Shown piece by piece: positions 27,092 to 59,363 of a stretch of 64,000 nt of DNA; positions within the stretch are counted from its first letter, which is position 1; each line of letters begins with the position of its first letter. The notes under the pieces were generated by a model that was not told where the DNA came from, ran no database searches, and worked only from the letters and a program-made list of their open reading frames with translations. Source of the DNA: a virus. Lineage: Duplodnaviria > Caudoviricetes. A program made the translations under genes and the position numbers. The stretch is taken from IMG/VR virus record IMGVR_UViG_3300006169_000009, positions 32,001 to 96,000 of that record; one strand, written 5' to 3'.

Positions 27092-27340
27092 TCAACCCTC
27101 CTGGATGTACCCGCGTGCAGCACCGTCGATACGGGCCGCCGAGAGCGCGCAGGCGGTAGGGCCAGAGCCCCAGCCACGCTCCTGGGTGGTGACCTTGGAG
27201 CCAGCGCGCATGGCGTCGGAGAGGGTGTACTTGGTCAGCACGCCCATCTCGATCTCACCCAGTTCCGCCTTCAGGGCCTGGGTCGCCTCCGGCCAGATCT
27301 CCTCCGTGGTCTTGGGAGTCTGCTTCTCCGTGGTGCTCAT
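27092..27340 (-). CDS. Hypothetical protein
   Basis: MSTTEKQ... with a GAGG RBS. Confidence 0.65.
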   Translation of the reverse strand: MSTTEKQTPKTTEEIWPEATQALKAELGEIEMGVLTKYTLSDAMRAGSKVTTQERGWGSGPTACALSAARIDGAARGYIQEG

Positions 27341-28385
27341 CTGCTTCCTCACTTTCAGGGTTCTGGAACGACAGGTCACAGTCTAGCGTCTCCAGCCAGT
27401 CTGCGATAGCCTCTCGCGTCCACTTGTGGGTGTCGTTGAGATGCACGACTAGGTTGACGACGTAGTTGGTTCTGGGCATGGAACAGAACGTCTTTCCCTT
27501 GTTCTTGCGTACCGGACACTTTGCCTTGGCGGTCTTCAGCGCAGGGATGGCCTTGACCAGTGCCCCGGTCATCGGGTGGTCCTCGTCGGTGTAAGAGGCT
27601 CCGCTATTGGCGGTGTACGGCGTCAACTTCGCCTGGTCTGGCGTGATGGTCTTCTTGGGCTTGTACTCGCCCTTGTGGACCACCAGCGGGAGCGCGTGGT
27701 CGAGGTTCGGGATCTGGTTGGATACCGTGGTGGGGGTCAGCAGACCCTCGATGAGAAGGTCGACAGCGGCCTCAGCCTGATGCTGGGCCAGACCGTGCTC
27801 CATCACGAGCCAACCGATCAGTTCCTGGGGATCGGTGGTGCCTACATGGAAGTGGAACTTCTCCGGGTCCTCATCCACCGGCTCCTCCATCTCGATGTTC
27901 GGGCTGCAGTTGTCGTAGGCAGTGAACGTGCCCATCTGTCGAAGAACGTGGACCTGTTCAAGAGTGTCCTGGACAGCCTCCCAAGGCTTGCCGTCAGTCC
28001 AGTCGCACACGAATACGATCTTCGATCCTGGTCGAAGACCGCGCAGTCCTCTCGGGTGATAGACGAACTTCGCGTCCAGATTCGTGCGAAGGTTGCGAAC
28101 CTCACACCACAACTTGAAGCAGTTGTAGTTCATAGCCACGACGTAGTAAGGCTCGGGGGTGCGGAACAACTTCAGGCCCAGCAGGTTCTCCCACGTGTCG
28201 TGCTTGTGGGTGTTGGGCTTCATGTCGATGAGGACCTTCAGGCTGGCGTGCTGCGCAGGAGTCATGACGAAATCAACCGATCCACCAGTCTGGTGATTAG
28301 AGACAACCCCGCCGTACTTGTAGTCCTTGTATCCGACGGGCTTCCATGGCGAGGAGATCTGGTACAAACCATAAGACTGGGACAC
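27255..28385 (-). CDS. Hypothetical protein with a C-terminal HLND..WTRE.IADWL phage motif
   Basis: GTG start after GAGGAAG; the longer track start runs through the tmRNA-like gene. Confidence 0.65.
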   Translation of the reverse strand: MSQSYGLYQISSPWKPVGYKDYKYGGVVSNHQTGGSVDFVMTPAQHASLKVLIDMKPNTHKHDTWENLLGLKLFRTPEPYYVVAMNYNCFKLWCEVRNLRTNLDAKFVYHPRGLRGLRPGSKIVFVCDWTDGKPWEAVQDTLEQVHVLRQMGTFTAYDNCSPNIEMEEPVDEDPEKFHFHVGTTDPQELIGWLVMEHGLAQHQAEAAVDLLIEGLLTPTTVSNQIPNLDHALPLVVHKGEYKPKKTITPDQAKLTPYTANSGASYTDEDHPMTGALVKAIPALKTAKAKCPVRKNKGKTFCSMPRTNYVVNLVVHLNDTHKWTREAIADWLETLDCDLSFQNPESEEADEHHGEADSQDHGGDLAGGDPGPEGGTG

Positions 28386-28414: not shown

Positions 28415-28431
28415 ACTCAACAGTGGAGCCA
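28415..28431. repeat. Trailer arm of the 17-bp inverted repeat bracketing the tRNA operon
   Basis: ACTCAACAGTGGAGCCA is the exact reverse complement of 31947..31963. Confidence 0.9.
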
Positions 28432-28432
28432 G

Positions 28433-28510
28433 TGGAGATGGCGGGACTCGAACCCGCGTCCGCCGTCAGTCCGCATGCGGTCTTCCGACGTCGAACTACC
28501 ATGCATCCCC
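28433..28510 (-). ncRNA. Mini-tmRNA (tRNA-like domain only)
   Basis: GGGGATG/CATCTCC-A acceptor with G3:U70; D-loop without a stem ending TTCGAC; P2 helix; GAC-GCGGG-TTCGAGT-CCCGC T-arm; no tag ORF. Confidence 0.75.
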
Positions 28511-28694
28511 AGGTGTGGGATTAGGACCGTGGCTTCCGGCCCGACACCCACGACGGAGAAAAGGAGTGTCCGTCACACCCCCGCCCATATAGCAGGACGG
28601 ATGCCCCTGCGTTTCGTCACGCTGATGCAGGGTTCGCGGCCAGTGATTATCGCTCACAGGATTCAAGCGCCTGGGAGCCACCCAGGAGTCTGTG

Positions 28695-28877
28695 TCAGCG
28701 CCGACGGCCCTGACAGGTGTTGAGGTGACCCAGCAAGGCCGGGCCGCCGATCTTGATGAACGCCCCGCAGTGCCAGGGGCAGGCCCCGGTAGTGCGCTTG
28801 ATGCCCATCTTCTTCATGTACGCGGCCATCTCCTGGTCAGACTTGGAGCGCGTGCCACGACGGTCGTTTGCGGACAT
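28695..28877 (-). CDS. Small Zn-binding protein
   Basis: CPWHC...HLNTC; GGAAGGA RBS. Confidence 0.65.
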   Translation of the reverse strand: MSANDRRGTRSKSDQEMAAYMKKMGIKRTTGACPWHCGAFIKIGGPALLGHLNTCQGRRR

Positions 28878-28957
28878 TGGCAGTCCTTCCTATGAGTAGT
28901 TACCTACTCATGGAGACCACCAGCCTTTCCAGAGAACACTTGTCTCCTCTCGTGGGA

Positions 28958-29104
28958 CTACTTCTTGCGGCCCTTCTTGGCCTTCGCCTTCTTGGCGTCG
29001 GCGTTGCTGATGGCCGCAGCCTTGGACTTGCTCATGCCCTTGGCCTTCAACGCGTCGTACTCCGAAGGCTTCTTGATGCTCGGGCCGTGATCCTTACCTG
29101 GCAC
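28958..29104 (-). CDS. Small basic protein of an actinobacterial family (MPGKDHGPSIKKPSEYDALKAKGMSKSKAAAISNA)
   Basis: GTG start after GAGGAGAAGG; motif also seen in host-type small proteins. Confidence 0.7.
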   Translation of the reverse strand: MPGKDHGPSIKKPSEYDALKAKGMSKSKAAAISNADAKKAKAKKGRKK

Positions 29105-29138
29105 TGTCCTTCTCCTCTCAGACATGGCCAGTGTAGCG

Positions 29139-29211
29139 AGCCCCTGACAGGATTCGAACCCGCATTTCGCCTGAGTCGTATTCAGGTGCCTCTCCGTTAG
29201 ACTACAGGGGC
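29139..29211 (-). tRNA. tRNA-Arg(ACG)
   Basis: Cloverleaf; anticodon arm CCTGA-ATACGAC-TCAGG. Confidence 0.85.
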
Positions 29212-29212
29212 G

Positions 29213-29286
29213 TGGAGATGCTTCCCGGAGTCGAACCGGGGTGAACGGGTTTGCAGCCCGCCGCCTAGCCTCTCGGCCAAAGCATC
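29213..29286 (-). tRNA. tRNA-Cys(GCA)
   Basis: GCGGG-CTGCAAA-CCCGT; U73; CCA encoded. Confidence 0.92.
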
Positions 29287-29290
29287 TCGG

Positions 29291-29374
29291 TGCAGGGTGA
29301 AGGACTCGAACCTCCAAGGTCAGATGACACCTGGTTTACAGCCAGGGACGCTACCAGTTACGCTCTAACCCTGC
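29291..29374 (-). tRNA. tRNA-Tyr(GTA)
   Basis: CCTGG-CTGTAAA-CCAGG; long variable arm. Confidence 0.9.
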
Positions 29375-29376
29375 GG

Positions 29377-29451
29377 GGTGGCGGACGGCCCTCGAAGCCG
29401 CTAATCGACAGATTCACAGTCTGCCCGCTCGTCCACTTCGCGTTCCGCCAC
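29377..29451 (-). tRNA. tRNA-His(GTG), atypical
   Basis: GCAGA-CTGTGAA-TCTGT; C73; non-canonical T-arm and position 8. Confidence 0.75.
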
Positions 29452-29453
29452 AG

Positions 29454-29524
29454 TGCTCCCAGAGGGATTCGAACCCCCAGTCACGGTGTGTAAGACCGAT
29501 GGTTTGCCGTTAACCGACAGGAGC
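29454..29524 (-). tRNA. tRNA-Val(TAC)
   Basis: TCGGT-CTTACAC-ACCGT. Confidence 0.88.
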
Positions 29525-29595
29525 AAACGGGCTTGGGGTGTCGACTGGTCCCCGCTTCACGGATTCAAACCGATGGACGAGCCCCGCGCCCAACG

Positions 29596-29667
29596 CGGTG
29601 AGTACGGGGATCGAACCCGTGGCCTTCCGGCTGACAACCGGCTGCGCTGCCTCTGCGCCAACCCACC
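29596..29667 (-). tRNA. tRNA-Asp(GTC)
   Basis: GCCGG-TTGTCAG-CCGGA; G73. Confidence 0.88.
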
Positions 29668-29672
29668 TAGCG

Positions 29673-29746
29673 TGGAGAATGAGGGACTCGAACCCTCCAG
29701 GCCGCGATCTTGCAAGGATCGCCCGGGTAACCCGTGCCCATTCCCC
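29673..29746 (-). tRNA. tRNA-Ala(TGC)
   Basis: G3:U70 acceptor; CGATC-CTTGCAA-GATCG; weak D-arm. Confidence 0.8.
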
Positions 29747-29747
29747 T

Positions 29748-29823
29748 TGGCTGATCTGGTAGGACTCGAACCTACAACCCCCTGATTAACAGTCAGGTGC
29801 GCTGCCAATTGCGCCACAGACCA
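29748..29823 (-). tRNA. tRNA-Asn(GTT)
   Basis: CCTGA-CTGTTAA-TCAGG; G73 and CCA. Confidence 0.93.
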
Positions 29824-29828
29824 ATGAG

Positions 29829-29901
29829 TAGCGGTGACGGGATTCGAACCCGTAGTACCCAGATTATGAGTCTGGCGTGTTGCCGATTACACCACACCGC
29901 G
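29829..29901 (-). tRNA. tRNA-Met(CAT)
   Basis: CCAGA-CTCATAA-TCTGG; C1:U72 mismatch. Confidence 0.88.
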
Positions 29902-29906
29902 ATGCG

Positions 29907-29979
29907 TACGCCCAGTAGGACTCGAACCTACAACCCTCTGATTAAGAGTCAGATGCTCTACCAATTGAGCCATAGGCGC
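29907..29979 (-). tRNA. tRNA-Lys(CTT)
   Basis: TCTGA-CTCTTAA-TCAGA. Confidence 0.93.
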
Positions 29980-30077
29980 ATGTTGCTGACTTGCCCAACA
30001 AGGTTGTGCCACGTTGTTGGCGCTTCCGCAGGGCTAGGCACGTTAGAGCCCCCGCACCGACTGTCAGCGAGCCGTCG

Positions 30078-30151
30078 TGTCCTCGGAGGGACTTGAACCC
30101 CCAACCTGCAGGCTCTCGACCTGCCGCCTCTGCCGATTGGGCTACGAGGAC
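30078..30151 (-). tRNA. tRNA-Leu(GAG), short variable arm, C33
   Basis: GCAGG-TCGAGAG-CCTGC; A73. Confidence 0.8.
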
Positions 30152-30228
30152 AAGCCCGGACGTCTCCGGGTCGTTCTCATTACGTCGGGTGGCTCCACAC
30201 CGGCTCGTCAGCCGGGATCACCCGAGGG

Positions 30229-30302
30229 TATCCGTGGAGGGACTCGAACCCCCAACATCTTGATCCTGAATCAAGCGCCTCTGCCAGTTGGACTACACGG
30301 AC
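30229..30302 (-). tRNA. tRNA-Leu(CAG), short variable arm
   Basis: CTTGA-TTCAGGA-TCAAG. Confidence 0.88.
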
Positions 30303-30389
30303 ATGCGTGGGGATACCATTCGCCCCACCACCAGGCTCTACAATCCCATTCCACCTCGGCTCCCGTAGGCTTCGGCCCTGGCCCTTACG

Positions 30390-30473
30390 CGGAGAGAGCA
30401 GGATTCGAACCTGCGGGACGCGAGGCCCACTGAGTTAGCAACTCAGCGCAATAAACCGCTCTGCCACCTCTCC
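30390..30473 (-). tRNA. tRNA-Ser(GCT)
   Basis: CTGAG-TTGCTAA-CTCAG; long variable arm; G73. Confidence 0.9.
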
Positions 30474-30549
30474 TGGACCCCCCAGCAGGATTCGAACCCG
30501 CAACGCCCGGCTTAGAACACCGTCAGTCTATCCGTTGACCTATAGGGGG
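30474..30549 (-). tRNA. tRNA-Arg(TCT)
   Basis: ACGGT-GTTCTAA-GCCGG; CCA encoded. Confidence 0.82.
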
Positions 30550-30553
30550 ATAG

Positions 30554-30628
30554 TGCGCTGCTCAGGGCTCGAACCTGAAACATCCGGGGTTTGAATCCGG
30601 CACCTCTGCCAAATTGGGTCAGCAGCGC
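30554..30628 (-). tRNA. tRNA-Leu(CAA), short variable arm
   Basis: CCGGA-TTCAAAC-CCCGG. Confidence 0.82.
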
Positions 30629-30747
30629 GTGTGCGAGTCTGCAAGCGCACTCGGCGCGTTATCGGTGCTTCACGTACCGTCGTCAGGCCAAAGGCTTCTT
30701 TCCCTCTTCCGTCGAAGAGGATCGAGAACGGTAACTTGCAGACCCAG

Positions 30748-30831
30748 AGGAGGGTAGAGGGTTCGAACCCCTGCCCCGAAGGACACTCCAGTTTTCTAGA
30801 CTGGTCGCCAGCCACTCCAGCAGTACCCTCC
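30748..30831 (-). tRNA. tRNA-Ser(AGA)
   Basis: CCAGT-CTAGAAA-ACTGG; long variable arm GTCC-TTCG-GGGC. Confidence 0.8.
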
Positions 30832-30835
30832 GAAG

Positions 30836-30908
30836 TACCCCCAACGGGATTCGAACCCGTGTTAGCGGCTTGAAAGGCCGCCGTCCTAGTCCACTAGACG
30901 ATAAGGGT
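30836..30908 (-). tRNA. tRNA-Glu(TTC)
   Basis: GCGGC-CTTTCAA-GCCGC. Confidence 0.92.
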
Positions 30909-30909
30909 A

Positions 30910-30985
30910 TGGCAGTCCGTGCGGGAGTCGAACCCGCGTCACCTGGCTGAGAACCAGACATCCTGGGCCACTAGACGAACGGACC
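30910..30985 (-). tRNA. tRNA-Glu(CTC)
   Basis: TCTGG-TTCTCAG-CCAGG; CCA encoded. Confidence 0.92.
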
Positions 30986-31050
30986 AAGTGCTGTGGCTTG
31001 TCGGACCAGAGCATGAGTCAGCAGGCCCGAGTGGACCTCCAACACCGGAG

Positions 31051-31124
31051 TTGGGGTGGCAGGGCTTGAACCTGCGCATCCGTGCTTATCAGGCACGAGC
31101 CTTGACCGACTTGGCTACACCCCA
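31051..31124 (-). tRNA. tRNA-Ile(GAT)
   Basis: CGTGC-CTGATAA-GCACG. Confidence 0.88.
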
Positions 31125-31129
31125 TCGCG

Positions 31130-31201
31130 CTCCTCCCCAAGGACTCGAACCTCGACCGGATGAATCAGAGTCACCCGTGCTGCCAATTACACCAAGGAGG
31201 A
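31130..31201 (-). tRNA. tRNA-Gln(CTG)
   Basis: GGTGA-CTCTGAT-TCATC; U1:A72; G73. Confidence 0.9.
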
Positions 31202-31307
31202 AAGACGCGGACCCATGGCACTACATGGGCTACCCGCTCTGACCACCCCAGGTCTGCACCGTCCTCTGTGCAGTGTTCAGGCGAGGACACCTTGGGGGAG
31301 TGCGCAG

Positions 31308-31381
31308 AGCCTCGTGGAGGATTCGAACCCCCAGCGCGCTGATTACTAAACAGCCGTTCTGCCAGTTGGAACTAACGAGGC
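31308..31381 (-). tRNA. tRNA-Thr(AGT)
   Basis: GCC acceptor start; GCTGT-TTAGTAA-TCAGC. Confidence 0.82.
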
Positions 31382-31455
31382 ATGCGTACCGTGTTCGCGA
31401 AGGGCGGTACAACCCCTCCTCTAGAACGCCGCTTGTGCGACGGTGCGATCATACG

Positions 31456-31527
31456 AGCGCCGCAGGGGACTCGAACCCCCACCCTATGCTTGGAAGGCAT
31501 CGATGCTGCCATTAACACCAACGGCGC
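31456..31527 (-). tRNA. tRNA-Gly(TCC)
   Basis: GATGC-CTTCCAA-GCATA; U73. Confidence 0.88.
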
Positions 31528-31713
31528 GTGTGTCGGGGACGCAGCGCGGAAACGAGGGGCGTGATCAGTCTCTCGCATGGACCTTGCTTCGCCAGGAGGC
31601 AGCGTTGACGCCCCCGACTTTTATCACCATGACCCAACCCTTCGGTTGAGTAGTTGAAGCGCGGAGTGGAAGACATCCGCCGTGGGGGCGTAGTTTGTGG
31701 CCCCGCGCTTCTG

Positions 31714-31786
31714 TGCCGCCCCGAGGACTCGAACCTCGGCCTCCCGGTTTTCAGCCGGGCGCTCTACCTGTTGTCGCTAGAGCGGC
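31714..31786 (-). tRNA. tRNA-Phe(GAA)
   Basis: CCCGG-CTGAAAA-CCGGG. Confidence 0.88.
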
Positions 31787-31845
31787 ATGAGCGGGTCTAG
31801 GGTTGTCGACACTTAGCCCCATCGAGGGGGACTCTAGGCCCGCAG

Positions 31846-31919
31846 TCTGAGTGGGAGGATTTGAACCCCCGACCTCCTGAACCCAAATCAGGCGGCATAC
31901 CTGGCTTGCCTACACTCAG
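31846..31919 (-). tRNA. tRNA-Pro(TGG)
   Basis: CCTGA-TTTGGGT-TCAGG. Confidence 0.9.
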
Positions 31920-31946
31920 ATCGACAGGGCTTGGCAGGCCCTGTCA

Positions 31947-31976
31947 TGGCTCCACTGTTGAGTTCTCAATGTGCAA
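31947..31976 (-). promoter_or_regulatory. rrn-type boxA / conserved leader and leader arm of the 17-bp stalk
   Basis: TTGCACATTGAGAACTCAACAGTGGAGCCA matches the actinobacterial rrn leader consensus TTGAGAACTCAA(C/T)AG. Confidence 0.75.
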
Positions 31977-32022
31977 GTGGTTCGGGCTTCCACCTCCCGG
32001 CTTCTTGCCCGCCCACGAGAAG

Positions 32023-32052
32023 ACCTTAGCGCCGCCCAGTTCGGCCTGTCAA
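32023..32052 (-). promoter_or_regulatory. sigma70/SigA promoter of the tRNA operon
   Basis: TTGACA-N18-TAAGGT. Confidence 0.75.
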
Positions 32053-32064
32053 GAGGTCTTCTAG

Positions 32065-32139
32065 CCCCGGTGTGAGGAATCGAACCCCAGCAGCAAGAGT
32101 TTTGGAGGCTCTCCGTCGTACGCCACCGACTGCACCGGA
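32065..32139 (-). tRNA. tRNA-Trp(CCA), upstream of the operon promoter
   Basis: AGAGC-CTCCAAA-ACTCT (C:A mismatch); G73. Confidence 0.75.
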
Positions 32140-48537: not shown

Positions 48538-49644
48538 TCAGGCGTGGCTCTTGCGGTACCTGCGAACCGAGGCCTCGCTGGTGCGGTAGCCCAGTTCCTG
48601 GATGCGGCGAGCAGCGGGCTTGTGGCCCTCCTCGCTGCGCAGGATGCGGCGTACCCTCGGGTCGTTGTCCGCGATGTCGAGCAAGGTCACCTTGGCCTGC
48701 TCGTAGCCAGCCTCAGCGTCCGAAGGCTGCACGTCCTGGACCCCGTTGTCGGCGTCGAGCGAGTCCTGGACCTCGTTGAGCGTGGCCAGCGCCTCGCCGT
48801 CCTGGCGAGCGTAGACCTCGGCCAGCGCAGCGTCACGGTCGGTGGAGTCGAACGTGCGGACGCTGTACTTGTCCGAGGTGGCGTGCAGGACCCGGTACCG
48901 GCAGGTGCGGAACTTGTCACCGGCTCCGCCCCCGACCACGTCGCGAGGGTTGACCTCGACCACGAGCAGCAGTTGGGTCGAGCCGGTGTGGAACGTGGAG
49001 GCGTACGACCAGGTGCCGACGTGCAGCCCGTAGGAGCAGTCGTTGGTCTTGGACGAGTCGACCTCGGAGCGAGGGACGGTCACGACCGCACCCAGCGGGT
49101 TGGGGATGCGACCCGACTGGGGCTCACCGTCCACGAACACCTGGGTGGTGCCGGTCGACCAGGACAGGTTCAGCCCGTCGGTGCTGTCGACGCTCTTGTA
49201 CCCGATGATCTTGCCGTCCCGGGTGAGCGTGACGTCCTCGGACTCGACCCACTCCCAGAGGCTCTCGCGCACCTCGGGATCGGGGTTGGACGAGAGGTTC
49301 TCCAGGAAGTTGACGAGGCTGTCGACGTCAGCGTCCTGGTCGGCCCGGACCAGTTCGACCACACGGTCGGACAGAGCGGAGCGAACCGGGTCACCGTCGA
49401 AGAACAGGCGGCCACCGGAGTAGGAGACGCGCTCGCTCAGCGACTGGAGGTGCAGGCCGATGGTGGTCTCAGCGTCGAGCAGGCGGGAGACGTAGGCCTC
49501 GTCGTGGTCGGCCTCGGGCGTGCGCTCGAAGTAGTCCTGGACCGCCCCGAACTTGGGGTGGGTCTCGGAGATGGTCGCCTGGACCGAGGACCCGATGACC
49601 ACGAGTGTGGTGGAGTCGCCGTAGGCGAGGGACTGATACAGCAT
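48538..49644 (-). CDS. rIIB: RIIB-like protein with C-terminal HTH
   Basis: NFLENL..NP, LTRDG..IGYKSV, CSYGLHVG, VEVNPRDVV, KFRTCRY. Confidence 0.88.
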   Translation of the reverse strand: MLYQSLAYGDSTTLVVIGSSVQATISETHPKFGAVQDYFERTPEADHDEAYVSRLLDAETTIGLHLQSLSERVSYSGGRLFFDGDPVRSALSDRVVELVRADQDADVDSLVNFLENLSSNPDPEVRESLWEWVESEDVTLTRDGKIIGYKSVDSTDGLNLSWSTGTTQVFVDGEPQSGRIPNPLGAVVTVPRSEVDSSKTNDCSYGLHVGTWSYASTFHTGSTQLLLVVEVNPRDVVGGGAGDKFRTCRYRVLHATSDKYSVRTFDSTDRDAALAEVYARQDGEALATLNEVQDSLDADNGVQDVQPSDAEAGYEQAKVTLLDIADNDPRVRRILRSEEGHKPAARRIQELGYRTSEASVRRYRKSHA

Positions 49645-49816
49645 GTGGGTTGAGCCTTTCGTGTGGTGGATCGGATGGATGGTGCTGTGGTGCGGGGGTG
49701 CTCCCGTCTCTGCCAGGGACATCGGGAGCCTTGCGTGCCTGGCCAACCCCTTGAACTACCAGGATGAGGGGTGGCAAGTCTCGGTGTCAAGAGGCTTGCC
49801 ACCTCCCGTTCGTTCT

Positions 49817-51964
49817 TTACTCCTCCTCTCCGCACTCGCAGTCGTCCTCGGTGACCTCGCACGTGGGGCACACGGCGATGGGCGAGGTGCTGTTGATGTA
49901 GGTCACGGCGTGACCGTGAGCCTTCGGCATGCGCCGGGCGTAGTAGGAGTCAATGGCCTTCAGCAGTGGCCAGTGCTCCTCGATGTTGACGTACAGCGAC
50001 TCACCCGAGACCACGTCCTTGGAGACCACGTTCCACCGGCTCAGCGATTCGATCTCGGCCAGCCGGTCCTCGTAGAGGTCCACGATCTCCTCGGCATCCG
50101 CCAGCGCCCGGAAGGGAGCCAGGAACGTCTCGTTGGTGATGTCATCCCAGACCTCGGCCAACCGGTTGCGCCAGTTACGCAGCGCGTTGTTCTCGTAGTT
50201 GCTCATGGTGGCCTTGGCCTTCAGGATCTCCATGTCGTCCTCGGACAGGCTCTGGGCCTGCGAGGCTGCGTACTCCTGGAGCACCTTGGGACCGTAGACA
50301 GCCTCGGGCACCCGCTTCAGCAGCGCGTTCTCCGACTGGGTCGGGTACAGCGTGATGACCGTGTAGCCCTTGGTGGCAGCCTTGACCAGCGCGTCGTTGG
50401 ACAGCCAGCGCCTGTGCTCGGTCCAGCCGTCCTCGAAGTAGAGGATCGGGTCGCCGTACTCCAGGATCTCGCTCAGCGGGGTACGGTCCTCGACCTCGCG
50501 CTCCGCGCCGAAACCCTCGGTGTAGTGGGCCTCCGAGACCCGAGGCTTGCCGTCGGGGGTCACCCGCAGGCTACGCAGTTGGGCCTTGAACTCGTCCACG
50601 GTCCAGGTCTTGACCGGAGCCGTCTTGCCGAACGAGAACCAGTCGACCTTGCCCCGGCTCTTGCTCGTCTGGAGGACGTACTTGGGGACCTCGGGGTGCT
50701 CTTCGAGCATCTTCTTCAGGCCACGCAGAGGCTTCTCCGGCTTCTCCACGCCCGTGACGACCAGGACCCGGTCGGCGTCGTACGCGTTACCGATGACGAA
50801 GTCCTTCTGCGGGTCACCCACGACCATGGTCGCCCGGTTGTAGTAGCGCTTGACCATGCCGTACCCGAACAGGTCGGTCTTGACCTCGCCCAGGCTCTTG
50901 CCCTGGTAGGTGAGGTCATCGCCCTCGAACCCGAACATCTCCAGCAGCCCGGCCTGGTCCTTGCGGACGCGGCTGGCCTCGAAGTAGGAGCCAGCGGTGT
51001 CGACGGCGATCTGAGCGTTGCGGGTCAGAGTCGCAGCAGCCTTGGTGACAGCCTCGCGGATCGCCTTCAGCGTGCGGCTGGTGTCGCTCAGCGCCTCACG
51101 GCTGGGGGCGATGTTGACCGCACCGATGGGGACCTCGAAGAGGACTCCGACCTTGCGGCTGTACCCGTTGGAGAGCACGTTGGCGAGCCGGTGGGCATCA
51201 CCCTGGAGACCGCCAGCGACCTTCTCCATGATGTCCTCGGAGACCGGGTACGCGACCGTGCCCATGAGCACCCGGACCCGGTTGTTGGCCGTGGTGTACC
51301 ACGTGGTGTCGTCCAGCGTGGTGGTCTCGGGGTGCTCGAAAAACGACTCGGGAGCCTGGCCGTCAACCAGGACGGTACCCGGCTTCCAGGTGGCAAAGAA
51401 CTTGTAGGCCTCGGAGTGGGTCTCGCGCACGCTCTTGACCGGCAGGTTGACCTCGACCCCGTTGGGCTCGTCGGTCAGCCCCTCGCTCAGGACCGTCATC
51501 TGGCCCACGTGGTCATCGTTGAGCGCAAACAGAACCTTGGCCTCGAAGCCGTCCTTGCGCCCGGTGACGATGAACTGGCTGCCCATGGTGAACGCAGCCT
51601 TGGAACCGATGCCCAGCGCGCCGACCTGCTCGTCGCTGTCGCGCTTGGTGCTCGCACCGTAGGTACCGAAGACCTTGATGATCTCGTCCTTGGTCAGCCC
51701 GGTGCCGAAGTCGCGGATGATGAGGTTGCTGCCCCAGTCGCCCGGCAGCGTGACCTCGATGGGCCGGTGCGTCATGAACGCCTCGATGTGGGAGTCCCAC
51801 GCGTTGCAGGCGTACTCCCGGATGACCGCGAGGGTCCGGTTGGAGTACTGGTTGCTCAGCACGGACATGATGTGCCCGATGCCGTCTCCGTCGATGCCCA
51901 TGGACGTGGCACCGAGGGAGGAGATGTTGCCGGTCGTCTCGACCTGGCCGGTGATGTTCTTCAC
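49817..51964 (-). CDS. rIIA: RIIA-like protein (GHKL ATPase)
   Basis: YSN..AVIREYACNAWDSH, IRDFGTG, YGASTK, GALGIGSK; adjacent to rIIB. Confidence 0.9.
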   Translation of the reverse strand: MKNITGQVETTGNISSLGATSMGIDGDGIGHIMSVLSNQYSNRTLAVIREYACNAWDSHIEAFMTHRPIEVTLPGDWGSNLIIRDFGTGLTKDEIIKVFGTYGASTKRDSDEQVGALGIGSKAAFTMGSQFIVTGRKDGFEAKVLFALNDDHVGQMTVLSEGLTDEPNGVEVNLPVKSVRETHSEAYKFFATWKPGTVLVDGQAPESFFEHPETTTLDDTTWYTTANNRVRVLMGTVAYPVSEDIMEKVAGGLQGDAHRLANVLSNGYSRKVGVLFEVPIGAVNIAPSREALSDTSRTLKAIREAVTKAAATLTRNAQIAVDTAGSYFEASRVRKDQAGLLEMFGFEGDDLTYQGKSLGEVKTDLFGYGMVKRYYNRATMVVGDPQKDFVIGNAYDADRVLVVTGVEKPEKPLRGLKKMLEEHPEVPKYVLQTSKSRGKVDWFSFGKTAPVKTWTVDEFKAQLRSLRVTPDGKPRVSEAHYTEGFGAEREVEDRTPLSEILEYGDPILYFEDGWTEHRRWLSNDALVKAATKGYTVITLYPTQSENALLKRVPEAVYGPKVLQEYAASQAQSLSEDDMEILKAKATMSNYENNALRNWRNRLAEVWDDITNETFLAPFRALADAEEIVDLYEDRLAEIESLSRWNVVSKDVVSGESLYVNIEEHWPLLKAIDSYYARRMPKAHGHAVTYINSTSPIAVCPTCEVTEDDCECGEEE

Positions 51965-52035
51965 GCGCCCTCCTGAGGCTCTGTGGTGGTGTGACTCTTC
52001 GAGTATGGGGCCTAGCGCCGACAAGCGCAACCCCT

Positions 52036-57727: not shown

Positions 57728-57898
57728 CCCGTAACCCTGGCAGTGGAGGCAGTCCGCACCGTCATCGTCCTGCCCGGATCCGTAGCACCGCTTGCAGTCG
57801 ACTTCACGCCGGACGAACTCACCCTTCTCGGGGGCTCCATCGTCCGAACCGTTGTGAACGTCGTTCCAGGCCTCTTCGTGGCTGTACGAGTTACTCAC
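57713..57898 (-). CDS. Small DnaJ-type Zn-finger protein
   Basis: CKRCYGSG...CLHCQGYG. Confidence 0.65.
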   Translation of the reverse strand: MSNSYSHEEAWNDVHNGSDDGAPEKGEFVRREVDCKRCYGSGQDDDGADCLHCQGYGTNLV

Positions 57899-59363
57899 CG
57901 ACTACATGCCCTTCTACGATGTCCTCGGCCATGGGGTCGGCCTCTACTGGTCCCGGCAGGGCCTGGGCTCGCTCGGAGGCTCCGGCACCGAACATGCGCG
58001 AGAGCATGCCGGGCTCACCTCCTCCGCCTGCAGGGCCACTGCCACGCCCTGTGATCGAGATCGACCATCCCTCCTGCTCCATCTCGTGCTTGGCCTTCAT
58101 CATCTTGTTCAGCCGGTCGATCTCGGTGGAGAGGTTCGGGTCGGCGTATCCGCCCTCCAGTTCTTCCGCAAACCGCATGAAGTAGACACGCTGGGTCTGC
58201 ATCTCGATGAGCCCGTTGTGCATGTCGATGAAGTCCTGCTTGGTCCGAAGCGTGACCGGGATGTTGTACGCACAGTTAGCATCTTCCTGGAACTCGGGGC
58301 ACTTCGAGGACAGGAAGCAGGAGTTGCACATGCGCTGGGAGTCGCTGCGGATGTTGACCTTGTTGGTCTCGACAGTCTCTCCGTCGACCTCTTCCTCTGT
58401 CCTGGTGACCCCCAGGATCGGCAGCGTCTTGCTCGGCTCACGGGTATTTCGAGTTGCCAGGCTCTTCCGCGTTTCGTCCGAAGGGTTATCAACTGCCTCC
58501 CCCTCGGATTCCGCGTTCTCCGCTGTCAGCGAAACCTGGGGGTTAGCAACTCGACCCTGTCGCTTTTCGATGTCTTCGACCAACTTGCCCCAACTCCACG
58601 CTGAGAGCCTCAGCACCTCGGTCGGGTCGTCGTTCTCGATCTTGACGTGGTCGAACCCGTTGCGCTCGAACAGCGTGCGGTGCTGCTTACGGGCACGCTC
58701 CTTGTAGTCCTTGGGGTAGCGCTTCAACTCCCGGCCAGTCCAGATGATGGTGTCCCCATATCGCTGCGGAGAAAGCCACGAGGTGCTGCTCACGGAGTTC
58801 CACTTGATGGCCGACATCTCATCGACCTTAGTCATCGCTACGCCGTGCAGATGACAATCGAGCGAATTGAGATGGGGTGCCAGATTACGCCCTCCGATAG
58901 CCGTAGCGAGAACACCGACGTTGAGATACTTCTCGGACAGTTCCCGAAGTGCATCGAGTCCCCACTCGGGATGCCACAGTGGCATGAACTTGTCTCGTGG
59001 CAGGTCATCGTAGAAGTCCTCTCGCTGGTTTTCGATCCACTCCCGGCCCAGGCTGAGGGCATCGAACTCAGTGACCATCTCGACAGTGTCGATGTTGGCG
59101 GCCACAAAGGTCTGGTAGGCGTCCGAGATCGCCAGCAGGTCGGCTTGGCTGTACTTGTCGTCCTCGTCCTTGTTCACGGTGTAGGCACCAGAGTCGATGA
59201 GGATGTTGGTTCCGTCAGGGAACTTCTCAGCGACCTTCCACCCAGCCGTGTTCTTGACACGCCGCTGCAGCCCGATGAACGACAGCGCCACATTGGTGAC
59301 ATCGATCTCGCGCAGCACCTTGCGATGGCTGGGGACCTCAGCCCCGGCGTAGTACAGCCTCAC
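57891..59363 (-). CDS. TGT (queuine tRNA-ribosyltransferase / DpdA)-like barrel fused to a Cys4 and helical domain
   Basis: LYYAG, ILIDSGAYT, EFD, PLWH, HLHG, SVSSTSW..YG; then CNSC....C.......C. Confidence 0.65.
   Translation of the reverse strand: MRLYYAGAEVPSHRKVLREIDVTNVALSFIGLQRRVKNTAGWKVAEKFPDGTNILIDSGAYTVNKDEDDKYSQADLLAISDAYQTFVAANIDTVEMVTEFDALSLGREWIENQREDFYDDLPRDKFMPLWHPEWGLDALRELSEKYLNVGVLATAIGGRNLAPHLNSLDCHLHGVAMTKVDEMSAIKWNSVSSTSWLSPQRYGDTIIWTGRELKRYPKDYKERARKQHRTLFERNGFDHVKIENDDPTEVLRLSAWSWGKLVEDIEKRQGRVANPQVSLTAENAESEGEAVDNPSDETRKSLATRNTREPSKTLPILGVTRTEEEVDGETVETNKVNIRSDSQRMCNSCFLSSKCPEFQEDANCAYNIPVTLRTKQDFIDMHNGLIEMQTQRVYFMRFAEELEGGYADPNLSTEIDRLNKMMKAKHEMEQEGWSISITGRGSGPAGGGGEPGMLSRMFGAGASERAQALPGPVEADPMAEDIVEGHVVGE

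What the first reader, a model, noticed from the sequence alone, without database searches (positions are those of the whole stretch)
28433..28510. 78-nt mini-tmRNA lacking the mRNA-like domain
Seen: GGGGAUG-CAUGGUAGUU-CGACGUCGG-AAGACCGCAUGCGGA-CUGACGGCG-GAC-GCGGG-UUCGAGU-CCCGC-CAUCUCC-A. It has the hallmarks of the tmRNA tRNA-like domain (G3:U70, A73, D-loop without a stem, UUCGAC, P2 helix, GAC linker, T-arm), but P2 is capped by a tiny hairpin instead of pseudoknots and a tag ORF. It has no 7-nt anticodon loop, so it is not a tRNA. Known: some actinophages encode full tmRNAs, and tag-less tmRNAs are described from jakobid mitochondria. Inference: an SmpB sink that blocks tagging and degradation of phage proteins, or a tag-less ribosome-rescue RNA.
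Basis: partly seen in the sequence, partly recalled or inferred. Interest (0 to 1): 0.88.

Follow-up and report, generated by a model that had tools for sequence, protein, structure and literature searches.

The report
Phage tag-less mini-tmRNA gene
This uncultured 106-kb phage carries a real 78-base gene for only the alanine-accepting, tRNA-like end of the bacterial ribosome-rescue RNA (tmRNA); the type is already published for mycobacteriophage DS6A and is common in phages, so this is a further example, not a new kind.

Summary
Window 28433-28510 (minus strand) scores 54.5 bits against Rfam tmRNA (cut-off 47). The 5' and 3' halves of the tRNA-like domain (TLD) align fully, while 308 model positions (pseudoknots and tag ORF) are replaced by 14 nt. 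ARAGORN calls neither a tRNA nor a tmRNA there.

It is not a one-off deletion or an assembly error. Pattern scans of IMG/VR gave 46 distinct RNAs of 67-86 nt with the same design. Their stems are 99.3% paired, with many compensatory changes. U70 and A73 are invariant although the search did not force them.

The element is 79% identical to the published "TLD only" tmRNA of mycobacteriophage DS6A (Hudson 2014; Mao 2009 as cited there). This scan has also reported the class many times on other DNA.

The gene lies at the 3' end of a 25-tRNA array in a myovirus-type genome. That genome has no full-length tmRNA, SmpB, Pth, ArfB-like protein, CCA enzyme or tyrosine integrase.

The most likely function is competition with host tmRNA for SmpB and stalled ribosomes, which blocks SsrA tagging. 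Productive tag-less rescue is the main rival. No expression or biochemical data could be obtained.

Verdict: a real gene, a new member of a known kind, of modest interest.

The parts
28433..28510 (-). TLD-only (tag-less) mini-tmRNA gene, 78 nt from G1 to the discriminator A. CCA is not encoded.
   Evidence: Rfam RF00023 at 54.5 bits against a cut-off of 47. Family model R1 scores 74.4 bits. 79% identical to the DS6A TLD-only tmRNA.
28504..28510 (-). Acceptor stem 5' strand, GGGGAUG (RNA positions 1-7). G3 forms the G:U wobble that is the alanine identity element.
   Evidence: Sequence. In the family, pairs 5 and 6 covary and G3:U is kept in 46/46.
28491..28503 (-). D-loop analogue without a stem, CAUGGUAGUUCGA (RNA 8-20). 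It includes the GG and the UUCGA(C) motif of tmRNA.
   Evidence: cmscan alignment to the tmRNA consensus. GG is present in 45/46 family members.
28461..28490 (-). P2 stub and its cap (RNA 21-50). CGUCG/CGGCG is 5 bp; then a GA/GA internal loop; AG/CU is 2 bp; an A/A mismatch; then CCG-CAUG-CGG as the apical hairpin. This replaces the pseudoknots and the tag ORF.
   Evidence: Constrained fold. The first four P2 pairs are 97% paired, with compensatory changes across 46 sequences. L014 has GA/UC where the window has AG/CU.
28441..28457 (-). T arm: GCGGG, loop UUCGAGU, CCCGC (RNA 54-70). It is preceded by the GGAC junction at 28458-28460 plus C.
   Evidence: T-stem pairs 2 and 4 covary in the family.
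28433..28440 (-). Acceptor stem 3' strand CAUCUCC plus discriminator A (RNA 71-78).
   Evidence: The ending ...CUCCA is invariant in 46/46 although it lies outside the search pattern.
29138..32139 (-). Array of 25 tRNA genes on the same strand. The mini-tmRNA lies 627 nt downstream of its last member.
   Evidence: ARAGORN and Rfam tRNA hits.
27255..28385 (-). Downstream ORF of about 376 aa. Its GTG start lies 47 nt after the RNA's 3' end, behind a GGAAG ribosome-binding site. No family could be assigned. It is context only and is not shown to be functionally linked.
   Evidence: Translation. No Pfam or PHROG hit.

Best explanation
This is a functional phage gene for a tag-less, TLD-only tmRNA of the same family as the DS6A RNA.

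Inferred maturation: it is transcribed with or just after the tRNA array, cut by host RNase P and 3' processing enzymes, given CCA by the host enzyme, and charged with alanine by host AlaRS through G3:U70 and A73.

Inferred action: it binds host SmpB through the D-loop analogue and the UUCGAC...GGAC platform. With EF-Tu it can enter ribosomes stalled with an empty A site. Because it has no resume codon, tag ORF or stop codon, it cannot complete trans-translation.

Net effect: it competes with the host's full-length tmRNA for SmpB and for stalled ribosomes. SsrA tagging, and the ClpXP-type degradation of proteins made during infection, would therefore be suppressed.

Shown here: the gene, its fold, its family and its conservation. 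Not shown here: processing, charging, SmpB binding and the inhibitory effect. These rest on published tmRNA biology and on the Mao et al. 2009 result as cited in PMC4131195 and PMC11915505.
For: 1. Identity. RF00023 scores above its gathering cut-off, with both TLD halves aligned.

2. Family. There are 46 distinct minis in IMG/VR, from loci with GC 0.33-0.70. 99.3% of stem cells are paired and 160 cells show changes on both sides; 0 of 500 shuffles reach this, and sliding the partner columns drops pairing to 44-60%.

3. Homology to DS6A. Model R1, built without DS6A, hits NC_023744 28478-28557 at 58.8 bits. The two RNAs are 79% identical and share the inner hairpin CCGCAYGCGG.

4. Literature. 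DS6A is listed as 'TLD only'. [quoted passage not shown] A laboratory TLD fragment of 5' 25 nt plus 3' 34 nt joined by a UUCG loop binds SmpB in crystals (PMC3985003). That is the same design as this natural RNA.

5. Dependence on the host. The phage genome has no full-length tmRNA, SmpB, Pth, RF-1/ArfB-type protein or CCA enzyme.

6. The acceptor stem and T stem are identical to those of a Streptomyces chromosomal tmRNA. This is consistent with mimicry of an actinobacterial host's TLD.
Against: A pure SmpB sink would not need alanine identity. [quoted passage not shown] Yet G3:U70 and A73 are kept in 46/46 family members, while G1, G2, G4 and G7 always pair with C. This points to selection for charging, and so to action on the ribosome rather than simple titration.

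The gene sits in a tRNA array, which is a translation-supporting module. An earlier scan note reports a mini in the slot where sister phages carry a full tmRNA. Both facts fit a rescue role at least as well as an inhibitory one.

The published inhibition test was done in E. coli, and I know it only through citing papers.
Confidence: 0.5

Rival explanations
1. Productive tag-less ribosome rescue. The charged mini-tmRNA with SmpB and EF-Tu enters stalled ribosomes and accepts the nascent chain on its alanine. The chain is then released without a degron by a host factor that recognises an empty mRNA channel (ArfB or ArfA/RF2 type), or by drop-off followed by peptidyl-tRNA hydrolase. The phage thereby raises rescue capacity during infection without marking its proteins for degradation. 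A variant is repeated entry, which would add several alanines.
For: Alanine identity (G3:U70, A73) and the EF-Tu/T-loop features are invariant in 46/46 members although the search pattern did not force them. About half the family encode CCA. Here the gene lies at the end of a 25-tRNA array, and tRNAs lie close by in 22 of 60 loci. No mini-carrying genome checked also has a full-length tmRNA, so the two forms may substitute for each other. Tag-less mitochondrial tmRNAs co-occur with SmpB and are thought still to help with incomplete mRNAs (PMC11915505).
Against: The phage encodes no release factor, ArfB-like protein or Pth that would complete the cycle, so the release step is wholly hypothetical. 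The only experimental report on a similar molecule describes inhibition, not rescue (PMC4131195, PMC11915505).
Confidence: 0.3
2. A tRNA-like decoy or cofactor for something other than trans-translation. Examples: bait for a host defence nuclease or toxin that attacks tRNA or tmRNA, or a handle for a phage protein.
For: Phage tRNA arrays are often discussed as counter-measures to tRNA-targeting defences (general knowledge, not tested here). The purine-rich 5' side of the apical internal loop recurs in many members (28 of 46 by a loose RARR(N)C test), and the SmpB or AlaRS models do not explain it.
Against: The conserved positions are exactly those that define the SmpB/AlaRS/EF-Tu-binding TLD. 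No protein gene is consistently linked to the RNA across 60 loci.
Confidence: 0.1
3. A non-functional remnant: either a decaying deletion derivative of a once full-length phage tmRNA, or an attP-type fragment of ssrA used for integration.
For: Full-length tmRNAs exist in other actinophages (Bongo, Streptomyces phage Angela), so deletion is a plausible origin. Many prophages integrate into ssrA and carry its 3' end.
Against: The 5' acceptor strand and the D-loop analogue are present and pair perfectly with the 3' end, which an attP does not need. No tyrosine integrase is found in a genome rated 100% complete. The phage carries rIIA/rIIB and looks lytic. Compensatory changes across 46 diverse sequences show purifying selection on the fold. 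A relative in another metagenome (L012, 83% identical) keeps the same design.
Confidence: 0.04

Closest known systems
'TLD only' (CDS-less) tmRNA of Mycobacterium phage DS6A (tmRNA Website tmID 11587 / Phage__Mycobacterium.9; Hudson, Lau and Williams 2014, PMC4131195; PMC11915505; Mao et al. 2009, RNA Biol 6:355, known to me only through these citations)
   Same: Length is about 80 nt against 78 nt. Both have a complete TLD with G3:U70 and A73, no encoded CCA, and a P2 stub capped by a purine-rich internal loop plus the hairpin CCGCAYGCGG. Both come from actinophage-type, high-GC genomes. The two are 79% identical, and a model built without DS6A hits it at 58.8 bits.
   Different: DS6A has GUCGAC and GGCAC where the window has the consensus UUCGAC and GGAC. 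In DS6A (a 60.6-kb phage) the RNA lies between the lysis genes and the DNA polymerase clamp, with no tRNA nearby. Here it ends a 25-tRNA array in a 106-kb myovirus-type genome.
Standard one-piece tmRNA (Rfam RF00023), including the full-length phage copies of Mycobacterium phage Bongo and Streptomyces phage Angela
   Same: Acceptor stem, G3:U70, A73, D-loop analogue, UUCGAC...GGAC junction and T arm. The acceptor and T stems are identical to a Streptomyces chromosomal tmRNA. Phage copies also sit next to tRNA genes.
   Different: No pseudoknots, no resume codon, no tag ORF and no stop-terminated template: 14 nt stand in place of 308 model positions. It cannot carry out the mRNA half of trans-translation.
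Tag-less organellar tmRNAs (jakobid and oomycete mitochondria, Rfam RF02544; ~65-bp plastid forms of Mallomonadaceae, PMC11915505)
   Same: Reduced to little more than the TLD, with no tag reading frame. They are presumed still to work with SmpB.
   Different: They are organellar and of independent origin. The mitochondrial form comes from a permuted, two-piece gene. The window RNA's best match within the tRNA/tmRNA clan is bacterial RF00023, not RF02544.
Laboratory TLD fragments used for SmpB co-crystals (for example PDB 2CZJ, described in PMC3985003)
   Same: The 5' and 3' TLD halves are joined through a shortened P2 closed by a tetraloop. Such fragments are known to bind SmpB.
   Different: They are artificial constructs. 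The natural RNA has a longer P2 stub with a conserved purine-rich internal loop.

Membership tests
tmRNA (Rfam RF00023), as a sequence and structure family | Score at or above the curated gathering cut-off, with both TLD halves aligned | tested here: met
   54.5 bits against 47; model positions 1-374 are spanned with an internal deletion.
tmRNA, as a functional class (trans-translation RNA) | Acceptor stem with G3:U70 and discriminator A73 (alanine identity) | tested here: met
   GGGGAUG/CAUCUCC followed by A. Invariant in 46/46 relatives.
tmRNA, as a functional class (trans-translation RNA) | D-loop analogue without a stem, the UUCGAC...GGAC junction and the T arm (the SmpB/EF-Tu platform) | tested here: met
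   cmscan alignment.
tmRNA, as a functional class (trans-translation RNA) | mRNA-like domain: a resume codon and a tag ORF ending in a stop codon | tested here: not met
   ARAGORN finds no tag peptide. Only 30 nt lie between the P2 base pairs. The window RNA has a single UGA, in one frame. Six of 46 relatives have no stop codon in any frame, so an ORF is not a family feature.
tmRNA, as a functional class (trans-translation RNA) | Pseudoknots PK1-PK4 | tested here: not met
   308 model positions are replaced by 14 nt.
tmRNA, as a functional class (trans-translation RNA) | Alanylation by AlaRS and binding of SmpB | not testable with these tools
   Needs biochemistry.
TLD-only (CDS-less) phage tmRNA, DS6A type | An RNA gene of 65-90 nt made of a complete TLD whose P2 is closed by a short hairpin, encoded by a phage | tested here: met
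   The genome is an IMG/VR virus record with sheath, portal, capsid and terminase genes.
TLD-only (CDS-less) phage tmRNA, DS6A type | Homology to the DS6A RNA | tested here: met
   R1 (built without DS6A) hits DS6A at 58.8 bits, E 3.9e-11. 79% identity and a shared inner hairpin.
TLD-only (CDS-less) phage tmRNA, DS6A type | Inhibits host tmRNA function when expressed | not testable with these tools
   Reported for a similar molecule in E. coli, according to PMC4131195 and PMC11915505. Not tested for this RNA.
tRNA (RF00005) | Anticodon arm with a 7-nt loop, and a D stem | tested here: not met
   ARAGORN makes no call. The tmRNA model outscores tRNA within the clan. The fold shows no anticodon arm.
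Mitochondrial tag-less tmRNA (RF02544) | Best match within the tRNA/tmRNA clan | tested here: inconclusive
   cmscan keeps only the best clan member, which is RF00023. The scores of the two suppressed overlapping hits were not shown.
attP fragment of ssrA | Only the 3' part of ssrA, next to an integrase gene | tested here: not met
   The 5' acceptor strand and the D-analogue are present. No PF00589 integrase in the genome. Serine recombinases were not searched.

The most novel reading that the evidence does not exclude
The invariant alanine identity (G3:U70 and A73 in 46/46, while every other G of the stem pairs with C), and the fact that minis and full-length tmRNAs were never found together in the six large genomes checked, may mean the RNA must be charged and act on the ribosome. 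On this reading phage mini-tmRNAs are not mere SmpB sponges. They would be a distinct, template-free rescue device that transfers one alanine (or, by repeated entry, several) to stalled chains and hands the ribosome to a host release pathway, uncoupling rescue from SsrA-directed proteolysis. The recurrent purine-rich internal loop in the P2 stub would then be a functional contact, for example with SmpB or the decoding region, rather than filler.
Probability: 0.25. Interest if true: 0.65.

Novelty: new member of a known kind. Interest (0 to 1): 0.3.

Why it matters
On its own this gene is one more example of a published type. Three things make it worth recording.

1. The type is missed by ARAGORN, the tRNA/tmRNA finder tested here, and it carries no tmRNA annotation in the DS6A RefSeq record.

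2. It is far commoner in phages than the single published case suggests: 46 distinct sequences came from two simple pattern scans.

3. Its strict retention of alanine identity poses a clear and cheap experiment, a chargeable against a non-chargeable mutant. That experiment would tell whether phages switch off, or rewire, the host's main ribosome-rescue and protein-tagging pathway.

Cultured carriers such as DS6A make the question testable.

Tried and rejected
- **Close relatives.** Megablast of the 2-kb neighbourhood against 50,697 phage records found nothing.
- **Short-query BLAST.** It mostly found T arms of full-length tmRNAs and tRNAs.
- **Streptomyces phage Xkcd426.** This hit is a different tRNA-like gene with a D arm and a long insert, not a mini-tmRNA.
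- **Neighbouring ORF as a probe.** The search for related loci with P0001 gave one weak relative only. tblastn of the window's ORFs showed that L012 shares only an NT5C-like gene and the mini-tmRNA. I therefore could not test whether sister phages hold a full tmRNA in the same slot.
- **Bacterial genomes.** The matches examined were tRNA-Ser(CGA) genes of Desulfobacterota or 3' ends of ordinary 350-400-nt tmRNAs. That sample contained no cell-encoded mini, but the scan was incomplete.
- **Partner genes.** Clustering 2,420 ORFs from 60 mini-carrying loci gave only lineage-specific clusters (GP88, a C5 methylase, DUF3310), none related to translation.
- **A very short tag ORF.** Rejected as a family feature.
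- **Purine-rich loop as a relic of the UAGUC-type element upstream of resume codons** (PMC2481249; compare UAAGC|GCC in Bongo and UAAAU|GCC in Angela). The resemblance is loose and could not be tested, so it stays a lead only.
- **Alternative P2 register.** The family alignment supports the canonical register that starts at the C of GAC. The window, L012, L014 and L007 can form both.
- **Promoters and terminators.** The scan gave nothing above shuffled expectation near the gene.

Full report
**What is in the sequence**

Rfam's tmRNA model (RF00023) matches 28430-28510 on the minus strand. The score is 54.5 bits against a gathering score of 47, with E 1.2e-18 for the 64-kb window. The alignment covers model positions 1-374 but skips 308 internal positions, which are replaced by 14 nt. 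Both halves of the tRNA-like domain (TLD) are therefore present, and the pseudoknots and tag template are absent.

ARAGORN finds 25 tRNA genes at 29138-32139 on the same strand. It calls no tRNA and no tmRNA at this place. The single-sequence fold energy is not unusual (z = -1.6), so the case does not rest on thermodynamics.

**Anatomy**

| Part | RNA positions | Sequence or pairing |
|---|---|---|
| Acceptor stem | 1-7 with 71-77 | seven pairs, with G3 opposite U |
| Discriminator | 78 | A, followed in the DNA by CUG, so CCA is not encoded |
| D-loop analogue | 8-20 | CAUGGUAGUUCGA, unpaired |
| Junction | 19, 20 opposite 52, 51 | the tandem G·A position of the tmRNA consensus |
| P2 | 21-25 with 46-50 | CGUCG/CGGCG |
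| Internal loop | 26-27 and 44-45 | GA/GA |
| Short helix | 28-29 with 42-43 | AG/CU |
| Mismatch | 30 and 41 | A/A |
| Apical hairpin | 31-40 | CCG-CAUG-CGG |
| T arm | 54-70 | GCGGG-UUCGAGU-CCCGC |

The phage's tRNA genes mostly lack an encoded CCA as well.

The family alignment favours the register given in the table.

**Genome context**

The window is bases 32001-96000 of a 106,055-bp IMG/VR virus record that CheckV rates 100% complete. It encodes a tail sheath, portal, major head protein, large terminase, rIIA- and rIIB-like proteins and a queuine tRNA-ribosyltransferase homologue. It is therefore a myovirus-type phage and probably lytic.

Its GC content is about 63%. The nearest isolated phage by protein similarity is Actinomycetia phage DSL-LC01, at 48% identity.

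The mini-tmRNA lies 627 nt downstream of the last tRNA of the array. It lies 47 nt upstream of an unassigned ORF of about 376 aa on the same strand.

The genome contains none of the following:
- another tmRNA
- SmpB
- peptidyl-tRNA hydrolase
- an RF-1/ArfB-type domain
- a CCA-adding enzyme
- a tyrosine integrase

**Not a one-off**

A pattern describing only the TLD halves with a short spacer found 21 viral contigs. A looser version found 60. Dereplication leaves 46 distinct RNAs of 67-86 nt, with a median of 78 nt. They come from loci with GC 0.33-0.70.

A covariance model (R1) built from the first 18 sequences aligns all 46. On that alignment:
- 99.3% of stem cells are standard pairs.
- 160 cells carry changes on both sides.
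- 0 of 500 shuffles reach these values.
- Sliding the 3' partners by one to three columns drops pairing to 44-60%.

Some columns were fixed by the search pattern. The covarying ones were not: acceptor pairs 5 and 6, T-stem pairs 2 and 4, and P2 pairs 2-4. The whole 3' acceptor strand also lies outside the pattern. Even so, U opposite G3 and the discriminator A are kept in 46/46, while G1, G2, G4 and G7 always face C. A GG in the D-loop analogue is present in 45/46.

The nearest relative of the window's RNA is L012, which is 83% identical and comes from a different metagenome. It keeps the same design.

**Relation to what is published**

Hudson, Lau and Williams (PMC4131195) list "Mycobacterium phage DS6A (TLD only)". 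[quoted passage not shown] The 2025 tmRNA database paper (PMC11915505) repeats this. It adds ~65-bp CDS-less plastid forms and tag-less mitochondrial forms. I could not read Mao et al. 2009 itself.

Model R1, built without DS6A, finds the DS6A gene at NC_023744 28478-28557 with 58.8 bits. That RNA is 79% identical to the window's. It shares the inner hairpin CCGCAYGCGG, preceded by a purine-rich loop. The window element is therefore a homologue of a published RNA.

Earlier work in this scan has reported the same class on many other genomes. I found the DS6A precedent independently before consulting those notes.

**Family-level observations**

In six large or complete mini-carrying genomes, the only hit to the tmRNA model that is not a weak tRNA-level match is the ~80-nt mini. 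These are the window's genome and five others of 94-133 kb. None has a full-length tmRNA.

tRNA genes lie within the fetched locus in 22 of 60 cases, and often within 10-50 nt. Many carriers, DS6A among them, have none nearby.

No protein family is consistently linked to the RNA.

The P2 stub typically consists of 5-8 bp, then an internal loop whose 5' side is purine-rich (AAGA, AAAG, GAAAA, UAAAG), then a 3-4-bp hairpin. What the loop does is unknown.

The acceptor and T stems of the window's RNA are identical to those of a Streptomyces chromosomal tmRNA recovered. This fits an actinobacterial host but does not prove one.

**Mechanism**

The conserved parts are the ones that tmRNA uses for RNase P processing, AlaRS recognition, SmpB binding and EF-Tu binding. 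This rests on established tmRNA biology (PMC3985003). A laboratory TLD fragment of the same design binds SmpB in crystals (PMC3985003).

Without a resume codon or a stop codon, the RNA cannot finish trans-translation. The best-supported outcome is competition with host tmRNA for SmpB and for stalled ribosomes, which would suppress SsrA tagging. I give this about 0.5.

The strict retention of alanine identity argues that charging matters. A pure sponge does not require that. It keeps open a productive, tag-less rescue role that would depend on host ArfB-type release or Pth; I give this about 0.3.

I rate a decoy role for something else at about 0.1. A non-functional remnant or attP role is contradicted by the covariation, by the presence of the 5' half and by the lack of an integrase; I rate it at about 0.04.

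**Limits**

- No expression data could be obtained.
The matches examined were all tRNA-Ser genes or ordinary tmRNAs.
- Counts from pattern scans are lower bounds and are biased towards the consensus that I specified.

**Verdict**

The function is plausible but untested. In terms of novelty this is a new member of a known kind.

Noticed in passing
window 28416-28440 (minus strand): The last 8 nt of the RNA plus its trailer form a tandem repeat, CUCCACUG-G-CUCCACUG, so the 3' acceptor end is duplicated immediately downstream. It may be a processing signal, a duplication scar or chance.
   Followed up: no
window 28511-29137: A 627-nt stretch lies between the tRNA array and the mini-tmRNA with no Rfam hit at E <= 1. 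It holds only two weak ORFs of about 60 aa (28496-28681 and 28695-28877, minus strand). The first overlaps the RNA's 5' end and has no Pfam match.
   Followed up: partly
window 28461-28490; also L012, L014 and L007: In these four high-GC members the P2 strands can pair in two registers 3 nt apart: the canonical one (CGUCG/CGGCG) and a shifted one (CGUCGG/CUGACG). The family as a whole supports the canonical register. Whether the second register matters is unknown.
   Followed up: partly
alignment A2 (46 mini-tmRNAs), 5' side of the apical internal loop: A recurrent purine-rich motif (AAGAC, AAAGC, GAAAAC, UAAAGC) sits just before the apical hairpin. It loosely resembles the U-A-R-N-C element upstream of tmRNA resume codons (UAGUC in E. 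coli, UAAGC in phage Bongo).
   Followed up: partly
L025 (Streptomyces phage Xkcd426, KU530220.1), about 1952-2058: An unannotated tRNA-like gene lies in an intergenic gap. It has an acceptor stem, a normal D arm and a T arm, but an insert of about 40 nt where the anticodon and variable region should be. It may be an intron-bearing or long-arm tRNA.
   Followed up: no
window 57891-59363 (minus) and 48538-52030 (minus): A queuine tRNA-ribosyltransferase homologue (phrog_887, 228 bits) and rIIA/rIIB-like genes sit in a 63%-GC, actinophage-like myovirus. Together with 25 tRNAs they point to a large investment in translation and nucleic-acid modification.
   Followed up: no
L076-L153 (genome contigs pattern hits): The TLD pattern also matches the 3' two-thirds of tRNA-Ser(CGA) genes of Desulfobacterota and Syntrophobacteria (68-nt matches), because of their long variable arm. 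This is a caution for anyone who uses such patterns to count mini-tmRNAs.
   Followed up: yes
window 29213-29286 (minus): The phage tRNA-Cys ends in ...CAUCUCCA, the same 3' acceptor strand as the mini-tmRNA. This is probably coincidence.
   Followed up: no
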